Notes under the pieces: model-generated
What the model was told of the DNA's origin: nothing
The model's input: the letters and a program-made list of their open reading frames with translations, nothing else
Databases searched by the model: none
Position numbers and translations under genes: made by a program
In this document: positions 56,440 through 61,801 of the stretch, piece by piece
Layout of the letters: each line of letters starts with the position of its first letter
How positions within the stretch are numbered: the first letter of the stretch is position 1
From: Candidatus Omnitrophota bacterium
GTDB lineage: Bacteria > Omnitrophota > Gorgyraeia > Zapsychrales > Fredricksoniimonadaceae
Direction of reading: 5' to 3'
Length of the DNA stretch: 64,000 nucleotides
Assembly (NCBI GenBank): GCA_030650275.1
Contig: JAUSEK010000004.1
Span: 24,196 to 88,195 of the forward strand

Positions 56440-57552
56440 TTAAAACATCGTCCGTCTTTTACTTAAATTCAGCAGAAAACCCAGCATAACGGCGAACACA
56501 ACAAACGAAGTCCTGCCGTAACTGACCAGGGGCAGGGTGATGCCGACGACCGGAAAAAGCCCGACGACCATGCCGATATTGATGACCACCTGCATGGCCA
56601 GGATGCTCACTATCCCCACGGTCACCATCTGGCCGAAACGGTCCTTATGGTGCCCGGCGATCAAAAACCCGCAATAGATGAGCGCCGCGTAACAATAGAC
56701 CGTGAACATCGCGCCGGCCAGGCCCCATTCTTCCCCGATGACGGAAAAAATGAAATCCGTATGGCGTTCGGGAAGGAAGTTGAGCTGGTTCTGCGTTCCC
56801 GCCAGCCACCCCTTGCCCAACAGCTGTCCTGACCCGACCGCGATCTTGGACTGGATAATGGTATATCCCGCGCCCGTCGGGTCATGGCTGGGATCGATGA
56901 AGACCAGAAGCCGGTCGCGTTGATAGGCTTTCAGGACATGCCAGACAAAAGGCACAACGGCCAGGACCGCGGCGATAAAAGCGGCAAACATCTTGAAGGA
57001 CAGGCCGCTCATGAACAGCATGACCAAAAATATCCCGAAAATGAGGATCGCGGTCCCCAGGTCGGGTTGTTTGAATATCAAAAAGATAGAAATGCCCGTG
57101 AGCATCAAGGGGACCAAAAAATAGTCCACGGCCCGCCGCAGGATGCTGGTGACATCAAAAGACAAACGCGGCCTGCGCTGGCTGAAATAACGGGCCAGCA
57201 TGAGGATGACGGCCAGTTTGCTGAATTCGGAGGGCTGGAAACTGAAACTTCCGATGGAAAACCAGCGGGTGGCGCCCAGGGCCTCGCGGCCCAGGACAAA
57301 GACCAGGACCAAAAACACCACGCTGACGGCGTACGCCGCGTAACTGACCTCGAAAAACCTGCGGTAATCCGTATGGCTTAAAGCTCCCATAATGACGATG
57401 GCTGCCAGTGCGCACCAGAGCTGGTCGTAAAACACGGCCTGCCCCGCGCGCGCATTGTTGAACGACGCACTGTACAGCGCGGCCAAACCGATGGCGATGA
57501 TGAGCAGTGTGTGGATCCAAATGACCCGGGGAATTTCTCTCTGGCTGATCAT
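56440..57552 (-). CDS. SEDS-family peptidoglycan glycosyltransferase (FtsW/RodA)
   Basis: 370 aa, ~10 TM helices, FtsW/RodA/SpoVE conserved blocks. Confidence 0.85.
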   Translation of the reverse strand: MISQREIPRVIWIHTLLIIAIGLAALYSASFNNARAGQAVFYDQLWCALAAIVIMGALSHTDYRRFFEVSYAAYAVSVVFLVLVFVLGREALGATRWFSIGSFSFQPSEFSKLAVILMLARYFSQRRPRLSFDVTSILRRAVDYFLVPLMLTGISIFLIFKQPDLGTAILIFGIFLVMLFMSGLSFKMFAAFIAAVLAVVPFVWHVLKAYQRDRLLVFIDPSHDPTGAGYTIIQSKIAVGSGQLLGKGWLAGTQNQLNFLPERHTDFIFSVIGEEWGLAGAMFTVYCYAALIYCGFLIAGHHKDRFGQMVTVGIVSILAMQVVINIGMVVGLFPVVGITLPLVSYGRTSFVVFAVMLGFLLNLSKRRTMF

Positions 57553-58868
57553 GATTTCCTATGGCATCGGCCTGTGAGGCGCCTATCCGCTACCCATCGA
57601 TAGGTCCACGCACCCACAAGTCCTGCTCCGGGTAAATAAAACAAAAATAACAACGGGGCCATCATCGGCAGGGCCCAGCACAGACGGCGGAACGCGAAGA
57701 ATCCGCCATACAAATGACCGTCGGGCTCAATGATGTACAGTTGGCTTTCGGCTTTTTCATAGGTCAGCGACGGATGCAGAGCGGCCAGGTCCGCGGTGCG
57801 AAAATTCACATGATCCAGTTTGGCGAACAGGTCCATCACACGCAAGGCGTTGACACTATGCATGCAAAACCCGCAGTCCCCGTCATAGACAACCTTGATC
57901 TTGGGTGAAACGCCATTGGCCCTCCTTTTGGCTTCCACCCACTCTATGATCCTGACGGGGTTGACGAATAAAAACAATTGGGCCGGGAACAAAAAGAAAA
58001 AGATGGCCGGCACGTCCAGGGTCAGGATCAAAAGCACGTGGAAAAAACACCCAAGGACAATGGCGGACCGCCGTGTCCTGGGAATGAACAATAGAAACGG
58101 TATGGCAAATTCCGCGACAATGATCAAAATGCCGACGGCATAACAAAAATCCGGATGCACGGCCATCCACTCTTTGATGAGAAAATTTTTCGTGACCCCC
58201 GAAGGAGGATAATTCACCAGGTAATGCAGAGGATTGTCTCTAAACCAATTGCCCTGGGCCGTGGTCTTATACAGCGCGGTGTAAAAGAACGTGGACGCGA
58301 TCTGCATCTGCAGAAGCCGCTGGATGAAAAACGGCCGCCCCCGCCGGTACGCCCCGGCATCCCCCTTACGCAAAGCATCCATGGAGAAATAATCACCGTG
58401 ATACGGCGTCAGGCACATCACAAACAGCGTGACCAAAAGGATGTCCCACGACAGCGTGCCGATATGAAAATCGTTGAGCGCGTAAAAATAATAGCAACAC
58501 GCCGTCATGGCAATACAACTGGCCTGCGAAAATAAACCGATCAGAAAAAACAGCCAACTGATGACAAAGCCCCAGACAAAAATGACCACCAGCCAATCCG
58601 GACTTTTGCCAACAATATCCAGGACACCAGTCGTGAAGAATGCCGGATTAACGGTCTTGAACGCCGTGGACAAATAATTGTCCGCCAAGGGCATGAACGA
58701 CGGCAAAACGTGCAGGCCGGTCGTCAACGCCACAAAAATACGAAAGAACGACAGCCCGATGGACGGCCGTTCTTCCAAAAACAATCTGTGCCAGATGTTA
58801 TTTACACTCATAAGCAATGGCCTGCTGACGTTCAAACGGCTGTTCGACCAGGGATGGATACTCCACAT
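57549..58868 (-). CDS. fusion membrane protein: N-terminal HTTM (vitamin-K-dependent gamma-carboxylase-like) domain + C-terminal DCC-family (DUF393, YDGDCGFC) thiol-disulfide oxidoreductase domain
   Basis: HTTM N-terminal signature ...ERPSIGLSFFRIFVALTTGLHV...; C-terminal KVVYDGDCGFCMHSVNALR; 4-nt overlap with the SEDS gene. Confidence 0.65.
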   Translation of the reverse strand: MWSIHPWSNSRLNVSRPLLMSVNNIWHRLFLEERPSIGLSFFRIFVALTTGLHVLPSFMPLADNYLSTAFKTVNPAFFTTGVLDIVGKSPDWLVVIFVWGFVISWLFFLIGLFSQASCIAMTACCYYFYALNDFHIGTLSWDILLVTLFVMCLTPYHGDYFSMDALRKGDAGAYRRGRPFFIQRLLQMQIASTFFYTALYKTTAQGNWFRDNPLHYLVNYPPSGVTKNFLIKEWMAVHPDFCYAVGILIIVAEFAIPFLLFIPRTRRSAIVLGCFFHVLLILTLDVPAIFFFLFPAQLFLFVNPVRIIEWVEAKRRANGVSPKIKVVYDGDCGFCMHSVNALRVMDLFAKLDHVNFRTADLAALHPSLTYEKAESQLYIIEPDGHLYGGFFAFRRLCWALPMMAPLLFLFYLPGAGLVGAWTYRWVADRRLTGRCHRKS

Positions 58869-59250
58869 AGGTCACTAAAAAACTGTCAAAATACGGGAAT
58901 TTTCTTTTCAGGAACGCACAAAAATTATTCACCACATCCCGCGACAGGACCGTGCTTAAAGCATTGCGGTGGATGTTGTCGTAGCCGATGGCGCGCGTCG
59001 CCAGGATCTGATGGGGGTCGATGATCTGCGTGCGTCCATCCTTGACCCCATACACCTCGGTGTTGCCGTAATTATCACCCACGTTAAAGAACATGATCCA
59101 CCCCGCGGGCGGGAACAGGAATTTGATCTTGGGCAAGGCGTGTTTAAAGAACGGTTCCAGATAAAAATGACGGGTGCTTTCGTAATGGAACACGAAGATC
59201 CAGACAACAACAAAAATAGAAATGATGGTGTTACGGGCAGTGATATTCAT
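58798..59250 (-). CDS. hypothetical protein, 150 aa, single N-terminal TM helix
   Basis: ORF within the tightly packed operon; no recognisable domain. Confidence 0.45.
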   Translation of the reverse strand: MNITARNTIISIFVVVWIFVFHYESTRHFYLEPFFKHALPKIKFLFPPAGWIMFFNVGDNYGNTEVYGVKDGRTQIIDPHQILATRAIGYDNIHRNALSTVLSRDVVNNFCAFLKRKFPYFDSFLVTYVEYPSLVEQPFERQQAIAYECK

Positions 59251-59257
59251 AATCTGT

Positions 59258-60750: not shown

Positions 60751-60752
60751 AT

Positions 60753-61193
60753 TTATCGTTGGGTGGACCGCTTGTCCAAAGAAAAACGCTGGGTTTTTAC
60801 CAAATTGCGCAGCAGGACCATGAGGACCAGAAAACAAAAACTGTCAAAAACAATGATCTGCTGCGGCGTCACCTGGACCCACGACCCGAAACATCCGCAA
60901 TGGTCCAAAGGCAAACCGCGCAGGAGGGCCTGGCCGACAACGACGATAAAAACAGCGAACAACATCAGCGCCCATCGCAGCGCCTTCATGGTCCACAATC
61001 CCAGCACGAGGAAAAGGCCGATCATCAGCTCAACCCAGGGCGCAACGACGGCCGTCAGGGTTTCCGCCCATCCAGGAAGCATTTGATAGGCCTGGACCAC
61101 GTACAAAAAATTCTGGTACGGGTGGATGGCCTTTTCAAGGCCGGAAACCAGAAGAACACTGCCGACAACGATGCGCAATAAGGGAAATATCAT
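60753..61193 (-). CDS. DoxX/MauE-family membrane protein (conserved CGCFG motif)
   Basis: 146 aa, 4 TM; HCGCFG motif typical of MauE-like proteins. Confidence 0.7.
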   Translation of the reverse strand: MIFPLLRIVVGSVLLVSGLEKAIHPYQNFLYVVQAYQMLPGWAETLTAVVAPWVELMIGLFLVLGLWTMKALRWALMLFAVFIVVVGQALLRGLPLDHCGCFGSWVQVTPQQIIVFDSFCFLVLMVLLRNLVKTQRFSLDKRSTQR

Positions 61194-61801
61194 TGGCTTG
61201 GGAAATATTGGTTGAGTTCATCCATCAGGGATTTTCCCCCGACGACCATTTTATGATTGATGAAATACGTCGGTGTCGACTGCACGCCCAGGGAACGGCC
61301 CTGGTCGCGGTCCCGCATCACCGTTTCTTCCACATCAGGAGAGGCCAGGCAACGCCGCAGGGCGGCTTCCTCCACCCCTGCTTCGCGGGCGAACTGCGTG
61401 AACATCCCTTCGGCGCTGATCAGATCCTTCCATTGCGCCTGGCGCTCAACGATCAAGTCATGCATCGGCCAGAATTTGCCCTGACGGCCCGCGCATTCAG
61501 CATAGGTGCTGGCGGTCATCGTATGACGGTGGATGGCCATCAAAGGAAAATACTTCATCTCAACACGGATATCCTTGGGATGAAGGGTATAAATTTTCTT
61601 GAGTTTGAGCGCCCCGTCGGCGCAGGCCGGACATTGAAAATCAATGAACTCAACGATCTGGACACGGGCCTTGAGGTCTCCTTTGGCGCGCATCCTGGAC
61701 GGGTCCATCTGTCCGGCATACAACGACAAAAATATTTTTACGGCAACCACAACGATCAGCGCGCTACCAACAATGACAACGGTTAATTTCTTTCTGGACA
61801 T
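61190..61801 (-). CDS. membrane-anchored DsbA-family thiol:disulfide oxidoreductase (CPAC active site)
   Basis: 203 aa; N-terminal TM, FIDFQCPACA thioredoxin-fold active site. Confidence 0.8.
   Translation of the reverse strand: MSRKKLTVVIVGSALIVVVAVKIFLSLYAGQMDPSRMRAKGDLKARVQIVEFIDFQCPACADGALKLKKIYTLHPKDIRVEMKYFPLMAIHRHTMTASTYAECAGRQGKFWPMHDLIVERQAQWKDLISAEGMFTQFAREAGVEEAALRRCLASPDVEETVMRDRDQGRSLGVQSTPTYFINHKMVVGGKSLMDELNQYFPSQ

What the first reader, a model, noticed from the sequence alone, without database searches (positions are those of the whole stretch)
57549..61801. Tightly packed operon of predicted extracytoplasmic redox proteins: DsbA-like – MauE/DoxX-like – exported Memo–AMMECR1 – orf150 – HTTM–DCC (then SEDS)
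Six minus-strand genes with 4-nt overlaps or small spacers read as one transcription unit. From 5' to 3' they are:
- a membrane-anchored DsbA-family protein with a CPAC active site
- a MauE/DoxX-like 4-TM protein with a CGCFG motif
- a Memo–AMMECR1 fusion carrying a classical Sec signal peptide
- an unknown 150-aa single-TM protein
- a membrane protein fusing an HTTM domain (homologous to vitamin-K-dependent gamma-carboxylase) to a DCC/DUF393 thiol-disulfide oxidoreductase domain
- a SEDS glycosyltransferase

MauE-like plus thioredoxin-like pairs are known, as in mauE/mauD, and DCC genes are often adjacent to HTTM genes. I do not know of a described system that combines those pairs with an exported AmmeMemo fusion in one operon. 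The domain content points to a quinone- or thiol-linked periplasmic protein-modification or redox-maturation system. That functional reading is inference.
Basis: partly seen in the sequence, partly recalled or inferred. Interest (0 to 1): 0.78.

Follow-up and report, generated by a model that had tools for sequence, protein, structure and literature searches.

The report
Exported Memo–AMMECR1 linked to carboxylase-like enzyme
In an uncultured Omnitrophota bacterium, a secreted fusion of two proteins of unknown function (Memo and AMMECR1) is consistently encoded beside a bacterial look-alike of the vitamin K-dependent carboxylase and a disulfide-forming pair, which gives a new, testable clue to what these proteins do.

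Summary
Five of the six genes form a conserved unit; the SEDS gene (RodA) does not belong to it. The window comes from a Candidatus Omnitrophota MAG.

The unit has three modules:
- **DsbA-like oxidase plus MauE.** MauE carries an invariant CGCFG motif. This matches a recently reported pathway that replaces DsbB.
- **A split enzyme resembling the vitamin K-dependent carboxylase.** Pfam finds only DCC1-like in the HTTM–DCC protein. Its predicted structure, however, matches only human GGCX (Foldseek E 9e-8). Invariant K182 aligns with catalytic K218. orf150 is its obligate single-pass partner; the family is narrow and has no detectable relatives.
- **A Memo–AMMECR1 fusion with a conserved Sec signal peptide.** No radical SAM partner is nearby.

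Across 62 informative loci (GC 37–69%), Memo–AMMECR1 lies within 3 kb of the orf150/HTTM–DCC pair in 53. This holds across three different gene arrangements, one of them inverted. DsbA/MauE accompany it in 37 loci, RodA in 15.

The two pairs are known or recently predicted. The exported Memo–AMMECR1 and its linkage to the HTTM enzyme appear undescribed. The mechanism, a quinol-dependent periplasmic modification, is inferred. I rate it a new variant of a known kind, of moderate to high interest.

The parts
61190..61801 (-). Membrane-anchored DsbA-like thiol oxidase (203 aa). It has an N-terminal TM anchor. The CPAC active site is at 61622-61633. A second invariant Cys pair is C103/C151.
   Evidence: Pfam Thioredoxin_4 1.4e-22 and DSBA 1.8e-19. 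One TM segment at residues 6-24, with 3 K/R before it. CPAC, C103, C151 and the STP cis-Pro motif are invariant in 48 orthologues. NCBI MDO8674706.1.
60753..61193 (-). MauE, a 4-TM protein that substitutes for DsbB (146 aa). The CGC of the CGCFG motif is at 60891-60899, in the loop between TM3 and TM4.
   Evidence: Pfam MauE 4.4e-20 and DoxX 4.9e-08. Four TM segments; the loop at residues 95-112 has no K/R, so it is predicted periplasmic. K21, E55 and C99-G-C101-F-G are invariant in 47 orthologues. These match the features reported for active MauE in bioRxiv 10.64898/2026.03.05.709764.
59287..60750 (-). Sec-exported Memo–AMMECR1 fusion (487 aa). The signal peptide is about residues 1-19 (60694-60750, ...AVPAQA|AS). 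Memo covers about residues 26-300 and AMMECR1 about 320-487.
   Evidence: Pfam Memo 9.6e-59 and AMMECR1 3.6e-52; TIGR04336 at 252.7 bits and TIGR04335 at 179.3 bits. A signal peptide (K/R n-region, hydrophobic core, AxA or SWG c-region) is present in essentially all full-length homologues. Alignments to solved MEMO1 start only at residue 27. PHAGY, EH, SxDxSH, EMCGF and LRGCIG are conserved in 67 orthologues.
58798..59250 (-). orf150, a single-pass (N-in) membrane protein. Its periplasmic alpha/beta domain of about 115 aa carries two invariant cysteines (C111, C149). It is the partner subunit of HTTM–DCC.
   Evidence: It lies immediately upstream of HTTM–DCC in 154 of 162 loci and overlaps it by 14 nt here. 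AF2 model pLDDT 81. No Pfam or NCBIfam hit. Only 48 clusters at E<=1e-3 among 1.84 billion representatives. No significant fold match.
57912..58811 (-). HTTM membrane domain of the HTTM–DCC protein (residues about 1-300), with the GGCX-like fold. The predicted catalytic Lys K182 has its codon at 58266-58268.
   Evidence: AF2 model pLDDT 86, pTM 0.83. The top 15 Foldseek PDB hits are all human GGCX (E 9e-8 to 2e-5, probability 1.00, about 300 columns). hhalign against GGCX gives E 3.7e-5 with K182 aligned to K218. K182 is invariant in 79 orthologues. PF05090 is hit in 21 of 38 orthologues.
57549..57893 (-). DCC1-like thioredoxin-fold domain with C-terminal hydrophobic helices (residues 307-420). 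The CxxC cysteines are C313 and C316 (57864-57875). The domain is predicted to be cytoplasmic.
   Evidence: Pfam DCC1-like 1.7e-17, 65.1 bits against a cut-off of 27.8. YDGxCgFC is invariant. There is a weak glutaredoxin match. The cytoplasmic placement is inferred from 8 model helices plus K/R-rich even-numbered loops (and the sequence).

Best explanation
**What it is.** The locus encodes a conserved extracytoplasmic modification module found in Omnitrophota. It has three parts.

1. **Split carboxylase-like enzyme.** A membrane enzyme built like the vitamin K-dependent gamma-carboxylase is split over two genes.
   - The HTTM domain has 8 predicted TM helices, N-terminus inside. Its invariant Lys, equivalent to GGCX K218, sits at the periplasmic end of TM5.
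   - orf150 supplies one more TM helix and a small periplasmic domain held by a disulfide.
   - A DCC thioredoxin-like CxxC domain sits on the cytoplasmic side, fused to the HTTM domain.
2. **Exported Memo–AMMECR1.** A Sec-exported Memo–AMMECR1 fusion works with this enzyme in the periplasm. Its Memo metal site and AMMECR1 LRGCIG motif are intact.
3. **DsbA-like oxidase plus MauE.** MauE is a quinone-linked CXC protein that substitutes for DsbB. The pair makes the disulfides that the exported parts need.

**Proposed mechanism (inferred, not shown).**
- The HTTM site uses a reduced membrane quinone to generate a strong base or oxidant at the periplasmic face, as GGCX does.
- This activates a C–H bond on an exported protein or peptide substrate that Memo–AMMECR1 binds or further processes.
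- HTTM/orf150 thus fills the role that the radical SAM enzyme has in cytoplasmic AmmeMemoRadiSam systems.
- The DCC CxxC recycles the quinone from the cytoplasm.

**What is excluded.** RodA, malQ and the type IV pilus genes are neighbours only.
For: **Shown.**
- Domain identities.
- GGCX fold, and K182 aligned to K218.
- orf150 sits upstream of HTTM–DCC in 154 of 162 loci, with a 14-nt overlap here.
- The signal peptide is conserved in more than 100 Memo–AMMECR1 homologues, including the divergent type C ones. It is also present on a separately encoded AMMECR1 in L031.
- Memo–AMMECR1 lies within 3 kb of the pair in 53 of 62 informative loci. This holds in three arrangements: same strand with malQ/RodA flanks, same strand with PckA/DUF255 flanks, and convergent with NAD kinase/CspA flanks. 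Locus GC ranges from 37 to 69%.
- No radical SAM gene lies beside Memo–AMMECR1 in any of 162 loci or in the window.
- MauE carries every feature of the experimentally active MauE.
- orf150 has two invariant periplasmic cysteines.

**From the literature.**
- A single-TM protein plus HTTM–DCC is predicted to rebuild the whole GGCX architecture.
- HTTM proteins recur in peptide maturation, for example in linaridin clusters and as MloH.
Against: - No substrate is identified, and no conserved small precursor gene was seen in the cluster.
- orf150 has no detectable sequence or fold relation to DUF5819 or to the GGCX lumenal domain.
- DsbA/MauE are absent from type C loci.
- Nine of 62 informative loci lack Memo–AMMECR1 within 3 kb.
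- All evidence comes from one phylum, so phylogenetic inertia is not fully excluded.
- Many Omnitrophota are thought to be anaerobes (my own knowledge), whereas GGCX chemistry needs O2.
- The signal peptide and membrane topology come from simple rules, not from a dedicated predictor or experiment.
I checked only its length (758 aa) and the KK at positions 217-218.
Confidence: 0.45

Rival explanations
1. The components and architecture are as above, but the substrate is a membrane isoprenoid, quinone or other envelope lipid rather than a protein. Memo–AMMECR1 and the HTTM enzyme would then modify a lipid at the periplasmic face.
For: The HTTM fold binds an isoprenoid quinone in GGCX (the hit descriptions list vitamin K complexes). 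From my memory of its abstract, Burroughs et al. 2019 (JBC 294:10211) linked Memo gene contexts to aliphatic isoprenoid modification; that paper is not held. No precursor or substrate gene is conserved in the cluster. The preprint notes a blocked peptide channel and an alternative opening in the bacterial complex.
Against: The characterised HTTM enzymes cited in the papers read (GGCX, MloH) act on peptide-linked substrates, and HTTM genes are conserved in linaridin RiPP clusters. From memory, B. subtilis SdpB is another such case. No lipid-biosynthesis gene is conserved next to the cluster.
Confidence: 0.2
2. The genes are independent housekeeping functions that are merely syntenic in Omnitrophota: general oxidative folding (DsbA/MauE), an unrelated HTTM–DCC enzyme and an unrelated exported Memo–AMMECR1.
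For: Nearly the whole window is one strand of tightly packed genes. In type A loci the synteny extends from GH57 to the pilus genes. MauE is proposed as a generalist. DsbA/MauE are absent from type C loci. A 7-kb mobile insertion splits the cluster in L001/L002. Nine of 62 loci lack Memo nearby.
Against: The Memo–AMMECR1 adjacency to the pair survives complete replacement of both flanks and an inversion. Over the same divergence, the RodA and malQ adjacency is lost: 15 and 13 loci against 53 of 62.
Confidence: 0.2
3. HTTM–DCC/orf150 is not a carboxylase-type catalyst. It is a transmembrane redox relay running from cytoplasmic thiol to quinone to periplasm, and it feeds electrons to the metal centre of exported Memo–AMMECR1, which is the real enzyme.
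For: The CxxC domain is predicted cytoplasmic, the quinone site lies in the membrane, and the partner domain is periplasmic. The Memo metal ligands are conserved.
Against: The GGCX catalytic Lys is invariant, which points to catalysis at the HTTM site itself. No precedent for an HTTM relay was found in the literature searched.
Confidence: 0.1
4. One reading: a six-gene operon including the SEDS glycosyltransferase, which would tie the redox proteins to peptidoglycan synthesis.
For: HTTM–DCC and RodA share an ATGA overlap here. The adjacency is kept in type A loci.
Against: RodA follows the pair in only 15 of 62 informative loci, and in none of the type B or C loci.
Confidence: 0.03

Closest known systems
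[quoted passage not shown]
   Same: The fold of the transmembrane HTTM domain is shared over about 300 aligned residues (Foldseek E 9e-8). The catalytic Lys is conserved, K182 aligning with K218. The predicted orientation is N-terminus inside with an outward-facing active site.
   Different: Sequence identity is only 16-18%. There is no fused lumenal domain; a separate 150-aa protein may replace it. A DCC thioredoxin-like domain and extra C-terminal helices are added. No Gla-type substrate or propeptide is known. The organism is a bacterium that may be anaerobic.
DUF5819 + HTTM–DCC1-like two-gene module (Melghirimyces thermohalophilus; bioRxiv 10.64898/2026.08.19.745780) and the fused carboxylase MloH of malonomycin biosynthesis
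   Same: The partner architecture is the same: a membrane protein of about 420-450 aa with HTTM followed by DCC1-like, preceded by an adjacent gene for a protein with one N-terminal TM helix plus a small domain. A Lys and a Trp a few residues later are conserved there (K189/W195) and here (K182/W189).
   Different: orf150 is not a detectable DUF5819 member: 0 of 42 orthologues hit Pfam, and exhaustive HMMER finds only its own narrow family. It is also shorter (150 aa, against a protein whose DUF5819 domain alone extends to residue 192). The Omnitrophota module has an exported Memo–AMMECR1 attached, which the preprint does not mention.
MauE/DsbA oxidative folding pathway (bioRxiv 10.64898/2026.03.05.709764) and MauE/MauD of methylamine dehydrogenase maturation
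   Same: A 4-TM MauE with CGCFG in the periplasmic TM3-TM4 loop, a conserved Lys in TM1 and Glu in TM2, encoded next to a CPxC thioredoxin-fold protein.
   Different: No mau genes are present. Activity has not been tested for this protein. Here the pair is embedded in a cluster with two other extracytoplasmic modules, although not in all lineages.
AmmeMemoRadiSam system (TIGR04335 / TIGR04336 / TIGR04337)
   Same: Both protein domains score far above the family cut-offs, and the conserved motifs are intact.
   Different: The two proteins are fused and carry a signal peptide, so they act outside the cytoplasm. The radical SAM component is absent from the window and from all 162 related loci next to the gene. 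The conserved neighbour is an HTTM enzyme instead.
HTTM proteins in peptide maturation: linaridin clusters (crdG and related genes) and B. subtilis SdpB with SdpA (the latter from memory)
   Same: An HTTM membrane protein encoded with small partner proteins acts on secreted peptides (SdpAB from my own knowledge).
   Different: No precursor peptide gene is seen here. No NCBIfam SdpA/SdpB-family model matched.

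Membership tests
HTTM / vitamin K-dependent carboxylase superfamily (PF05090) | Sequence match to the Pfam HTTM model | tested here: inconclusive
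   The window protein has no hit even at E<=10. However, 21 of 38 close orthologues hit PF05090, best E 1.4e-17. hhalign of the family profile against GGCX gives E 3.7e-5, probability 71%.
HTTM / vitamin K-dependent carboxylase superfamily (PF05090) | Fold of the multi-pass membrane domain | tested here: met
   The AF2 model has pLDDT 86. The top 15 Foldseek PDB hits are all GGCX, E 9e-8 to 2e-5, TMq about 0.55. The next non-GGCX hit has E>1.
HTTM / vitamin K-dependent carboxylase superfamily (PF05090) | Catalytic lysine (GGCX K218) | tested here: met
K182 is invariant in 79 orthologues.
HTTM / vitamin K-dependent carboxylase superfamily (PF05090) | Quinol- and O2-dependent epoxidase or carboxylase activity | not testable with these tools
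   This needs biochemistry.
DCC1-like thiol-disulfide oxidoreductase (PF04134) | HMM match above the gathering score, and the DxxCxxC motif | tested here: met
   65.1 bits against a cut-off of 27.8. The motif D-G-D-C-G-F-C is present, with C313 at 100% and C316 at 99% conservation.
DUF5819 + HTTM–DCC module | Adjacent gene for a protein with one N-terminal TM helix plus an extracytoplasmic domain | tested here: met
   orf150 lies upstream in 154 of 162 loci, with a 14-nt overlap here. It has one TM segment and a long N-terminal helix in the model.
DUF5819 + HTTM–DCC module | The partner belongs to Pfam DUF5819 | tested here: not met
   No DUF5819 hit for orf150 or for any of 42 orthologues at E<=1. 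Exhaustive profile search finds only 48 clusters, all of its own family or spurious.
DUF5819 + HTTM–DCC module | The partner occupies the place of the GGCX lumenal or clamp domain in a complex | tested here: inconclusive
MauE disulfide-bond-forming protein | MauE HMM match; CXC followed by F-G in the periplasmic TM3-TM4 loop; conserved Lys (TM1) and Glu (TM2) | tested here: met
   72.7 bits against a cut-off of 27. C99-G-C101-F-G, K21 and E55 are invariant. The loop has no K/R. Positional equivalence of the Lys and Glu is inferred.
MauE disulfide-bond-forming protein | Ability to replace DsbB | not testable with these tools
   This needs complementation of an E. coli dsbB deletion.
DsbA family | Thioredoxin/DSBA HMM match, CPxC active site, cis-Pro loop | tested here: met
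   Thioredoxin_4 81.1 bits and DSBA 70.7 bits. CPAC and STP are invariant.
AmmeMemoRadiSam system | Protein A (AMMECR1) and protein B (Memo) family matches | tested here: met
   TIGR04336 at 252.7 bits (cut-off 26) and TIGR04335 at 179.3 bits (cut-off 99).
AmmeMemoRadiSam system | An associated radical SAM enzyme (third component) | tested here: not met
   No CxxxCxxC radical SAM-like ORF in the 64-kb window; the only CxxxCxxC ORF is a PilB ATPase. Such ORFs occur in only 5 of 162 loci and never beside Memo–AMMECR1. The rest of the genome could not be examined.
AmmeMemoRadiSam system | Cytoplasmic location (implied by partnership with a radical SAM enzyme) | tested here: not met
   An N-terminal signal peptide is conserved across homologues. 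The family models and solved homologues align only from about residue 25-27.
SEDS (RodA) as a member of the unit | Conserved adjacency to the other five genes | tested here: not met
   The gene is a bona fide RodA (TIGR02210, 381 bits). It follows the pair in only 15 of 62 informative loci.

The most novel reading that the evidence does not exclude
Exported Memo–AMMECR1 together with the split GGCX-like enzyme (HTTM–DCC + orf150) forms a periplasmic counterpart of the AmmeMemoRadiSam system that needs no radical SAM enzyme. In it, quinol-driven C–H activation by an HTTM enzyme replaces radical SAM chemistry. This would give the first biochemical context for both Memo/AMMECR1 and bacterial HTTM proteins.
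Probability: 0.3. Interest if true: 0.8.

Novelty: new variant of a known kind. Interest (0 to 1): 0.58.

Why it matters
Memo and AMMECR1 are ancient proteins. Both have human disease links, and neither has an established biochemical function. Most bacterial HTTM proteins related to the vitamin K carboxylase likewise have no established function.

This locus shows a secreted Memo–AMMECR1 kept next to a carboxylase-like membrane enzyme through several genome rearrangements. That implies the Memo/AMMECR1 pair can work without its usual radical SAM partner and outside the cytoplasm. It also points to quinone-dependent chemistry as the missing context.

The module is small: three to five genes. 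It could be expressed in E. coli, which turns two long-standing 'function unknown' problems into one concrete experiment. It also adds an example, outside the phyla studied so far, of MauE serving as the local disulfide-forming enzyme.

Tried and rejected
**orf150 relatives.** All of the following found nothing significant, so the DUF5819 analogy rests on position and architecture only:
- Pfam and NCBIfam on orf150 and on 42 orthologues.
- hhalign against GGCX.
- Exhaustive HMMER against 1.84 billion representatives. The two odd hits were a repeat artefact (P0404) and an orf150–DCC chimera (P0403).

**Other searches that failed or were blocked.**
- A PDB sequence-profile search with the HTTM–DCC family did not reach GGCX; it gave only a weak glutaredoxin hit.
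- The afdb50 fold library was unavailable.
- Burroughs et al. 2019 (JBC; PMC6664185) is not held. Its isoprenoid link is therefore cited from memory only.
- The promoter and terminator scan gave no boundaries; counts were close to those in shuffles.

**Radical SAM partner.** No AmmeMemoRadiSam-type enzyme was found in the window or the loci.

**Reach beyond Omnitrophota.** Both collection scans returned only this family, at 44-68% identity to the scan query. Cross-phylum conservation therefore remains untested.

**Rejected readings.**
- RodA as part of the unit.
- A dedicated mau (methylamine) function; no mau genes are present.
- SdpA/SdpB family membership; no NCBIfam hit.

Full report
**Source and gene structure**

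The five proteins of the finding are identical to consecutive NCBI entries MDO8674702.1 to MDO8674706.1. These come from a 93,065-bp contig of a Candidatus Omnitrophota MAG. On the minus strand the genes are:

| Gene | Coordinates | Notes |
|---|---|---|
| DsbA-like | 61190-61801 | |
| MauE | 60753-61193 | ATGA overlap with DsbA |
| Memo–AMMECR1 | 59287-60750 | true start ATG 60750; 2-nt spacer |
| orf150 | 58798-59250 | 36-nt spacer |
| HTTM–DCC | 57549-58811 | true start ATG 58811; 14-nt overlap |
| RodA | 56440-57552 | ATGA overlap |

The packing does not stop at the finding's borders. malQ ends 4 nt before the DsbA start, and a GH57/DUF3536 gene overlaps malQ. After RodA come an MshEN-domain protein and two PilB ATPases, with spacers of 1-54 nt. 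A consensus scan found no excess of promoter-like or terminator-like sites. Spacing alone therefore cannot define the unit.

**Domain calls**

Pfam and NCBIfam confirm the following:
- Thioredoxin_4/DSBA.
- MauE (72.7 bits).
- Memo (199 bits) plus AMMECR1 (177 bits). These correspond to TIGR04336 and TIGR04335, the AmmeMemoRadiSam B and A proteins.
- DCC1-like (65 bits).
- RodA (TIGR02210, 381 bits, above its cut-off).

HTTM is the one call that direct HMM search does not support for this protein, which has no hit at E<=10. Four results support it indirectly:
- 21 of 38 orthologues hit PF05090, best E 1.4e-17.
- An AlphaFold2 model (pLDDT 86, pTM 0.83) matches human GGCX as its top 15 PDB hits. 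E is 9e-8 to 2e-5, with probability 1.00 over about 300 columns. The next non-GGCX hit has E>1.
- hhalign of the family profile against the human GGCX sequence gives E 3.7e-5 over residues 6-286 against 47-314. It places K182 opposite the catalytic K218.
- K182 is invariant in 79 orthologues.

**Topology (inferred)**

*DsbA-like protein.* It has one N-terminal anchor preceded by three K/R.

*MauE.* It has four TM segments. The CGCFG loop between TM3 and TM4 lacks K/R, so it should face the periplasm.

*HTTM–DCC.* The eight long helices of the model alternate with loops. The K/R content of those loops follows the positive-inside rule for an N-in, C-in protein:
- Loop 134-161 has 5 K/R.
- Loop 243-248 has 3 K/R.
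- Segment 283-306 has 6 K/R.
- The alternate loops are poor in K/R.

This places K182 at the periplasmic end of TM5 and the DCC CxxC domain in the cytoplasm.

*orf150.* It is N-in with one TM helix. Its periplasmic domain of about 115 residues carries two invariant cysteines.

*Memo–AMMECR1.* It has a classical signal peptide (MRFFIFFYLAWMLAVPAQA|AS). The same n-h-c pattern is present in essentially every full-length homologue among 120. It is also present in the divergent type C proteins, and on a separately encoded AMMECR1 in L031. Family models and solved homologues (MEMO1, MM0484, PH0010) align only from about residue 25-27.

**Neighbourhood conservation**

A scan of one genome per GTDB species with the HTTM–DCC alignment gave 80 loci, all from Omnitrophota-type MAGs. 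Many of these are labelled 'uncultured Planctomycetales'. A metagenome scan seeded with the most divergent members gave 80 more. Running tblastn of the window proteins against these loci, and clustering the ORFs, shows three arrangements:
- **Type A**, as in the window: GH57-malQ-DsbA-MauE-Memo–AMMECR1-orf150-HTTM–DCC-RodA-MshEN-PilB-PilB.
- **Type B**: the same five genes in the same order, but with PEP carboxykinase upstream. Downstream are a small exported protein, a DUF255 thioredoxin-like protein, AsmA and NUDIX.
- **Type C**: orf150-HTTM–DCC followed by Memo–AMMECR1 on the opposite strand. DsbA/MauE are absent. The flanks are housekeeping genes: NAD kinase, CspA, cyclophilin, TypA and aconitase.

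Counts among the 62 loci with at least 3.5 kb on both sides of the pair:

| Gene | Loci where present nearby |
|---|---|
| orf150 | 61 |
| Memo–AMMECR1 (within 3 kb) | 53 |
| DsbA and MauE | 37 |
| RodA | 15 |
| malQ | 13 |

GC content of the classified loci spans 37-69%. One exception, L001/L002, has a 7-kb insertion carrying Bro-N and Gp49 genes between Memo–AMMECR1 and orf150.

The conserved core is therefore orf150 + HTTM–DCC + exported Memo–AMMECR1. DsbA/MauE are a frequent but dispensable companion. RodA, malQ and the pilus genes are only neighbours in one lineage.

**What is already known about the parts**

*MauE.* A 2026 preprint shows that MauE from two other phyla replaces DsbB in E. 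coli. Its active site is a CXC(FG) motif in the TM3-TM4 periplasmic loop. It has a conserved Lys in TM1 and Glu in TM2, and a docked quinone. The authors propose MauE as the second most common disulfide-forming protein. The window protein has all these features, invariant across orthologues.

*HTTM–DCC with a partner.* Another 2026 preprint predicts that a DUF5819 protein (one TM helix plus a domain) and an adjacent HTTM–DCC1-like protein together rebuild the GGCX architecture. The complex has a menaquinol pocket next to a conserved Lys and Trp, and it resembles the fused carboxylase MloH. orf150 has the same position and architecture, but I could not show homology:
- No Pfam hit in orf150 or in 42 orthologues.
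- Only 48 clusters at E<=1e-3 in an exhaustive search of 1.84 billion representatives.

*HTTM in peptide maturation.* HTTM proteins also recur in peptide maturation clusters such as those for linaridins.

*The combination.* No paper in the library links Memo or AMMECR1 with HTTM, DCC or MauE.

**What seems new**

The Memo–AMMECR1 pair is defined in databases as part of a three-component cytoplasmic system with a radical SAM enzyme. Here it differs in four ways:
- The two proteins are fused.
- The fusion is exported.
- No radical SAM gene accompanies it. There is none in the window, and only 5 radical SAM-like ORFs occur in 162 loci, none adjacent.
- Its conserved neighbour is instead a GGCX-like membrane enzyme.

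The Memo metal-site motifs (PHAGY, EH, SxDxSH, EMCG) and the AMMECR1 LRGCIG motif are conserved. The protein is therefore presumably active.

**Mechanism**

The architecture is shown. The chemistry is inferred. I propose the following:
- HTTM/orf150 uses a reduced membrane quinone at the periplasmic face to activate a substrate, as GGCX does with vitamin K hydroquinone.
- Exported Memo–AMMECR1 binds or further converts that substrate.
- The cytoplasmic DCC CxxC recycles the quinone. This is analogous to the thioredoxin-like domains fused to bacterial VKOR (established knowledge).
- DsbA/MauE oxidise the cysteine pairs of the exported components.

On this view the HTTM enzyme takes the role of the radical SAM partner as the C–H activating module.

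Rival readings:
- A lipid or quinone substrate rather than a protein.
- A pure redox relay feeding the Memo metal centre.
- Functionally unrelated neighbours.

The last rival is weakened because the adjacency survives flank replacement and inversion. It is not excluded, because all data come from one phylum and 9 of 62 loci lack Memo–AMMECR1 nearby.

**Verdict**

The unit is five genes, with a core of three, and not six. Two of its modules match recently described systems. The third module, and its linkage to the HTTM enzyme, appear undescribed. I rate it a new variant of a known kind. Interest is moderate to high, because it offers a compact experimental entry into the unknown functions of Memo, AMMECR1 and bacterial HTTM proteins.

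Noticed in passing
window 40352-43930 (minus strand): A 1192-aa ORF with a hydrophobic N-terminus has no Pfam hit. It lies in the only part of the window with low GC (0.487) and strongly negative GC skew (-0.20). It sits next to the RNase G gene and the pilus secretin gene.
   Followed up: no
window 45644-56417 (minus strand): A complete type IV pilus cluster lies downstream of RodA. It has two PilB-type ATPases, two stand-alone MshEN-domain proteins (55956-56417 and 52054-52542; the first matches a c-di-GMP-binding motif model), PilC, a pilin, PilM/N/O and a secretin. The same order is conserved in type A loci.
   Followed up: partly
L001 2400-9400 and L002 1-7000: A 7-kb insertion of small genes (Bro-N, Gp49, DUF3892, DUF2238) separates Memo–AMMECR1 from orf150/HTTM–DCC. 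It appears to be a mobile or prophage-like element that splits the cluster without removing either side.
   Followed up: no
L031 7906-9376; L018 about 5250-5950: Memo and AMMECR1 are encoded as separate genes in L031, and the AMMECR1 part carries its own signal peptide. In L018 only an exported AMMECR1 lies between MauE and orf150.
   Followed up: partly
Type B loci, e.g. L020 11300-15800, L048 11643-12002: In about 13-17 loci HTTM–DCC is followed by a small exported 119-aa protein with no Pfam hit and a 731-aa Thioredox_DsbH (DUF255) protein. This may be another redox neighbour, or even a candidate substrate. Neither gene is present in the window.
   Followed up: partly
L053 8098-8454 and 11403-11834: In a locus that lacks Memo–AMMECR1 nearby, the orf150/HTTM–DCC pair is followed directly by a DoxX-family membrane protein, and a glutaredoxin gene lies about 1 kb upstream beyond an intervening aldo-keto-reductase-like gene.
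   Followed up: partly
L003/L004 19032-20847; L043 19311-20735: An HxsD-like small protein plus a 459-484-aa radical SAM/SPASM-type enzyme follow the pilus genes in some type A relatives. There is no equivalent in the window.
   Followed up: no
Record titles of L005, L007-L010 and many others: Many genome records that carry this Omnitrophota-type cluster are titled 'uncultured Planctomycetales', with single ones titled Actinomycetota, Elusimicrobia or Verrucomicrobia. These are probably submitter taxonomy labels rather than real cross-phylum occurrences.
   Followed up: no
P0403 (204 aa): This protein joins the N-terminal TM region of orf150 directly to a DCC1-like domain, with the whole HTTM domain missing. 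Its C-terminal part is nearly identical to the L077 protein. It is either a deletion variant or an assembly artefact.
   Followed up: no
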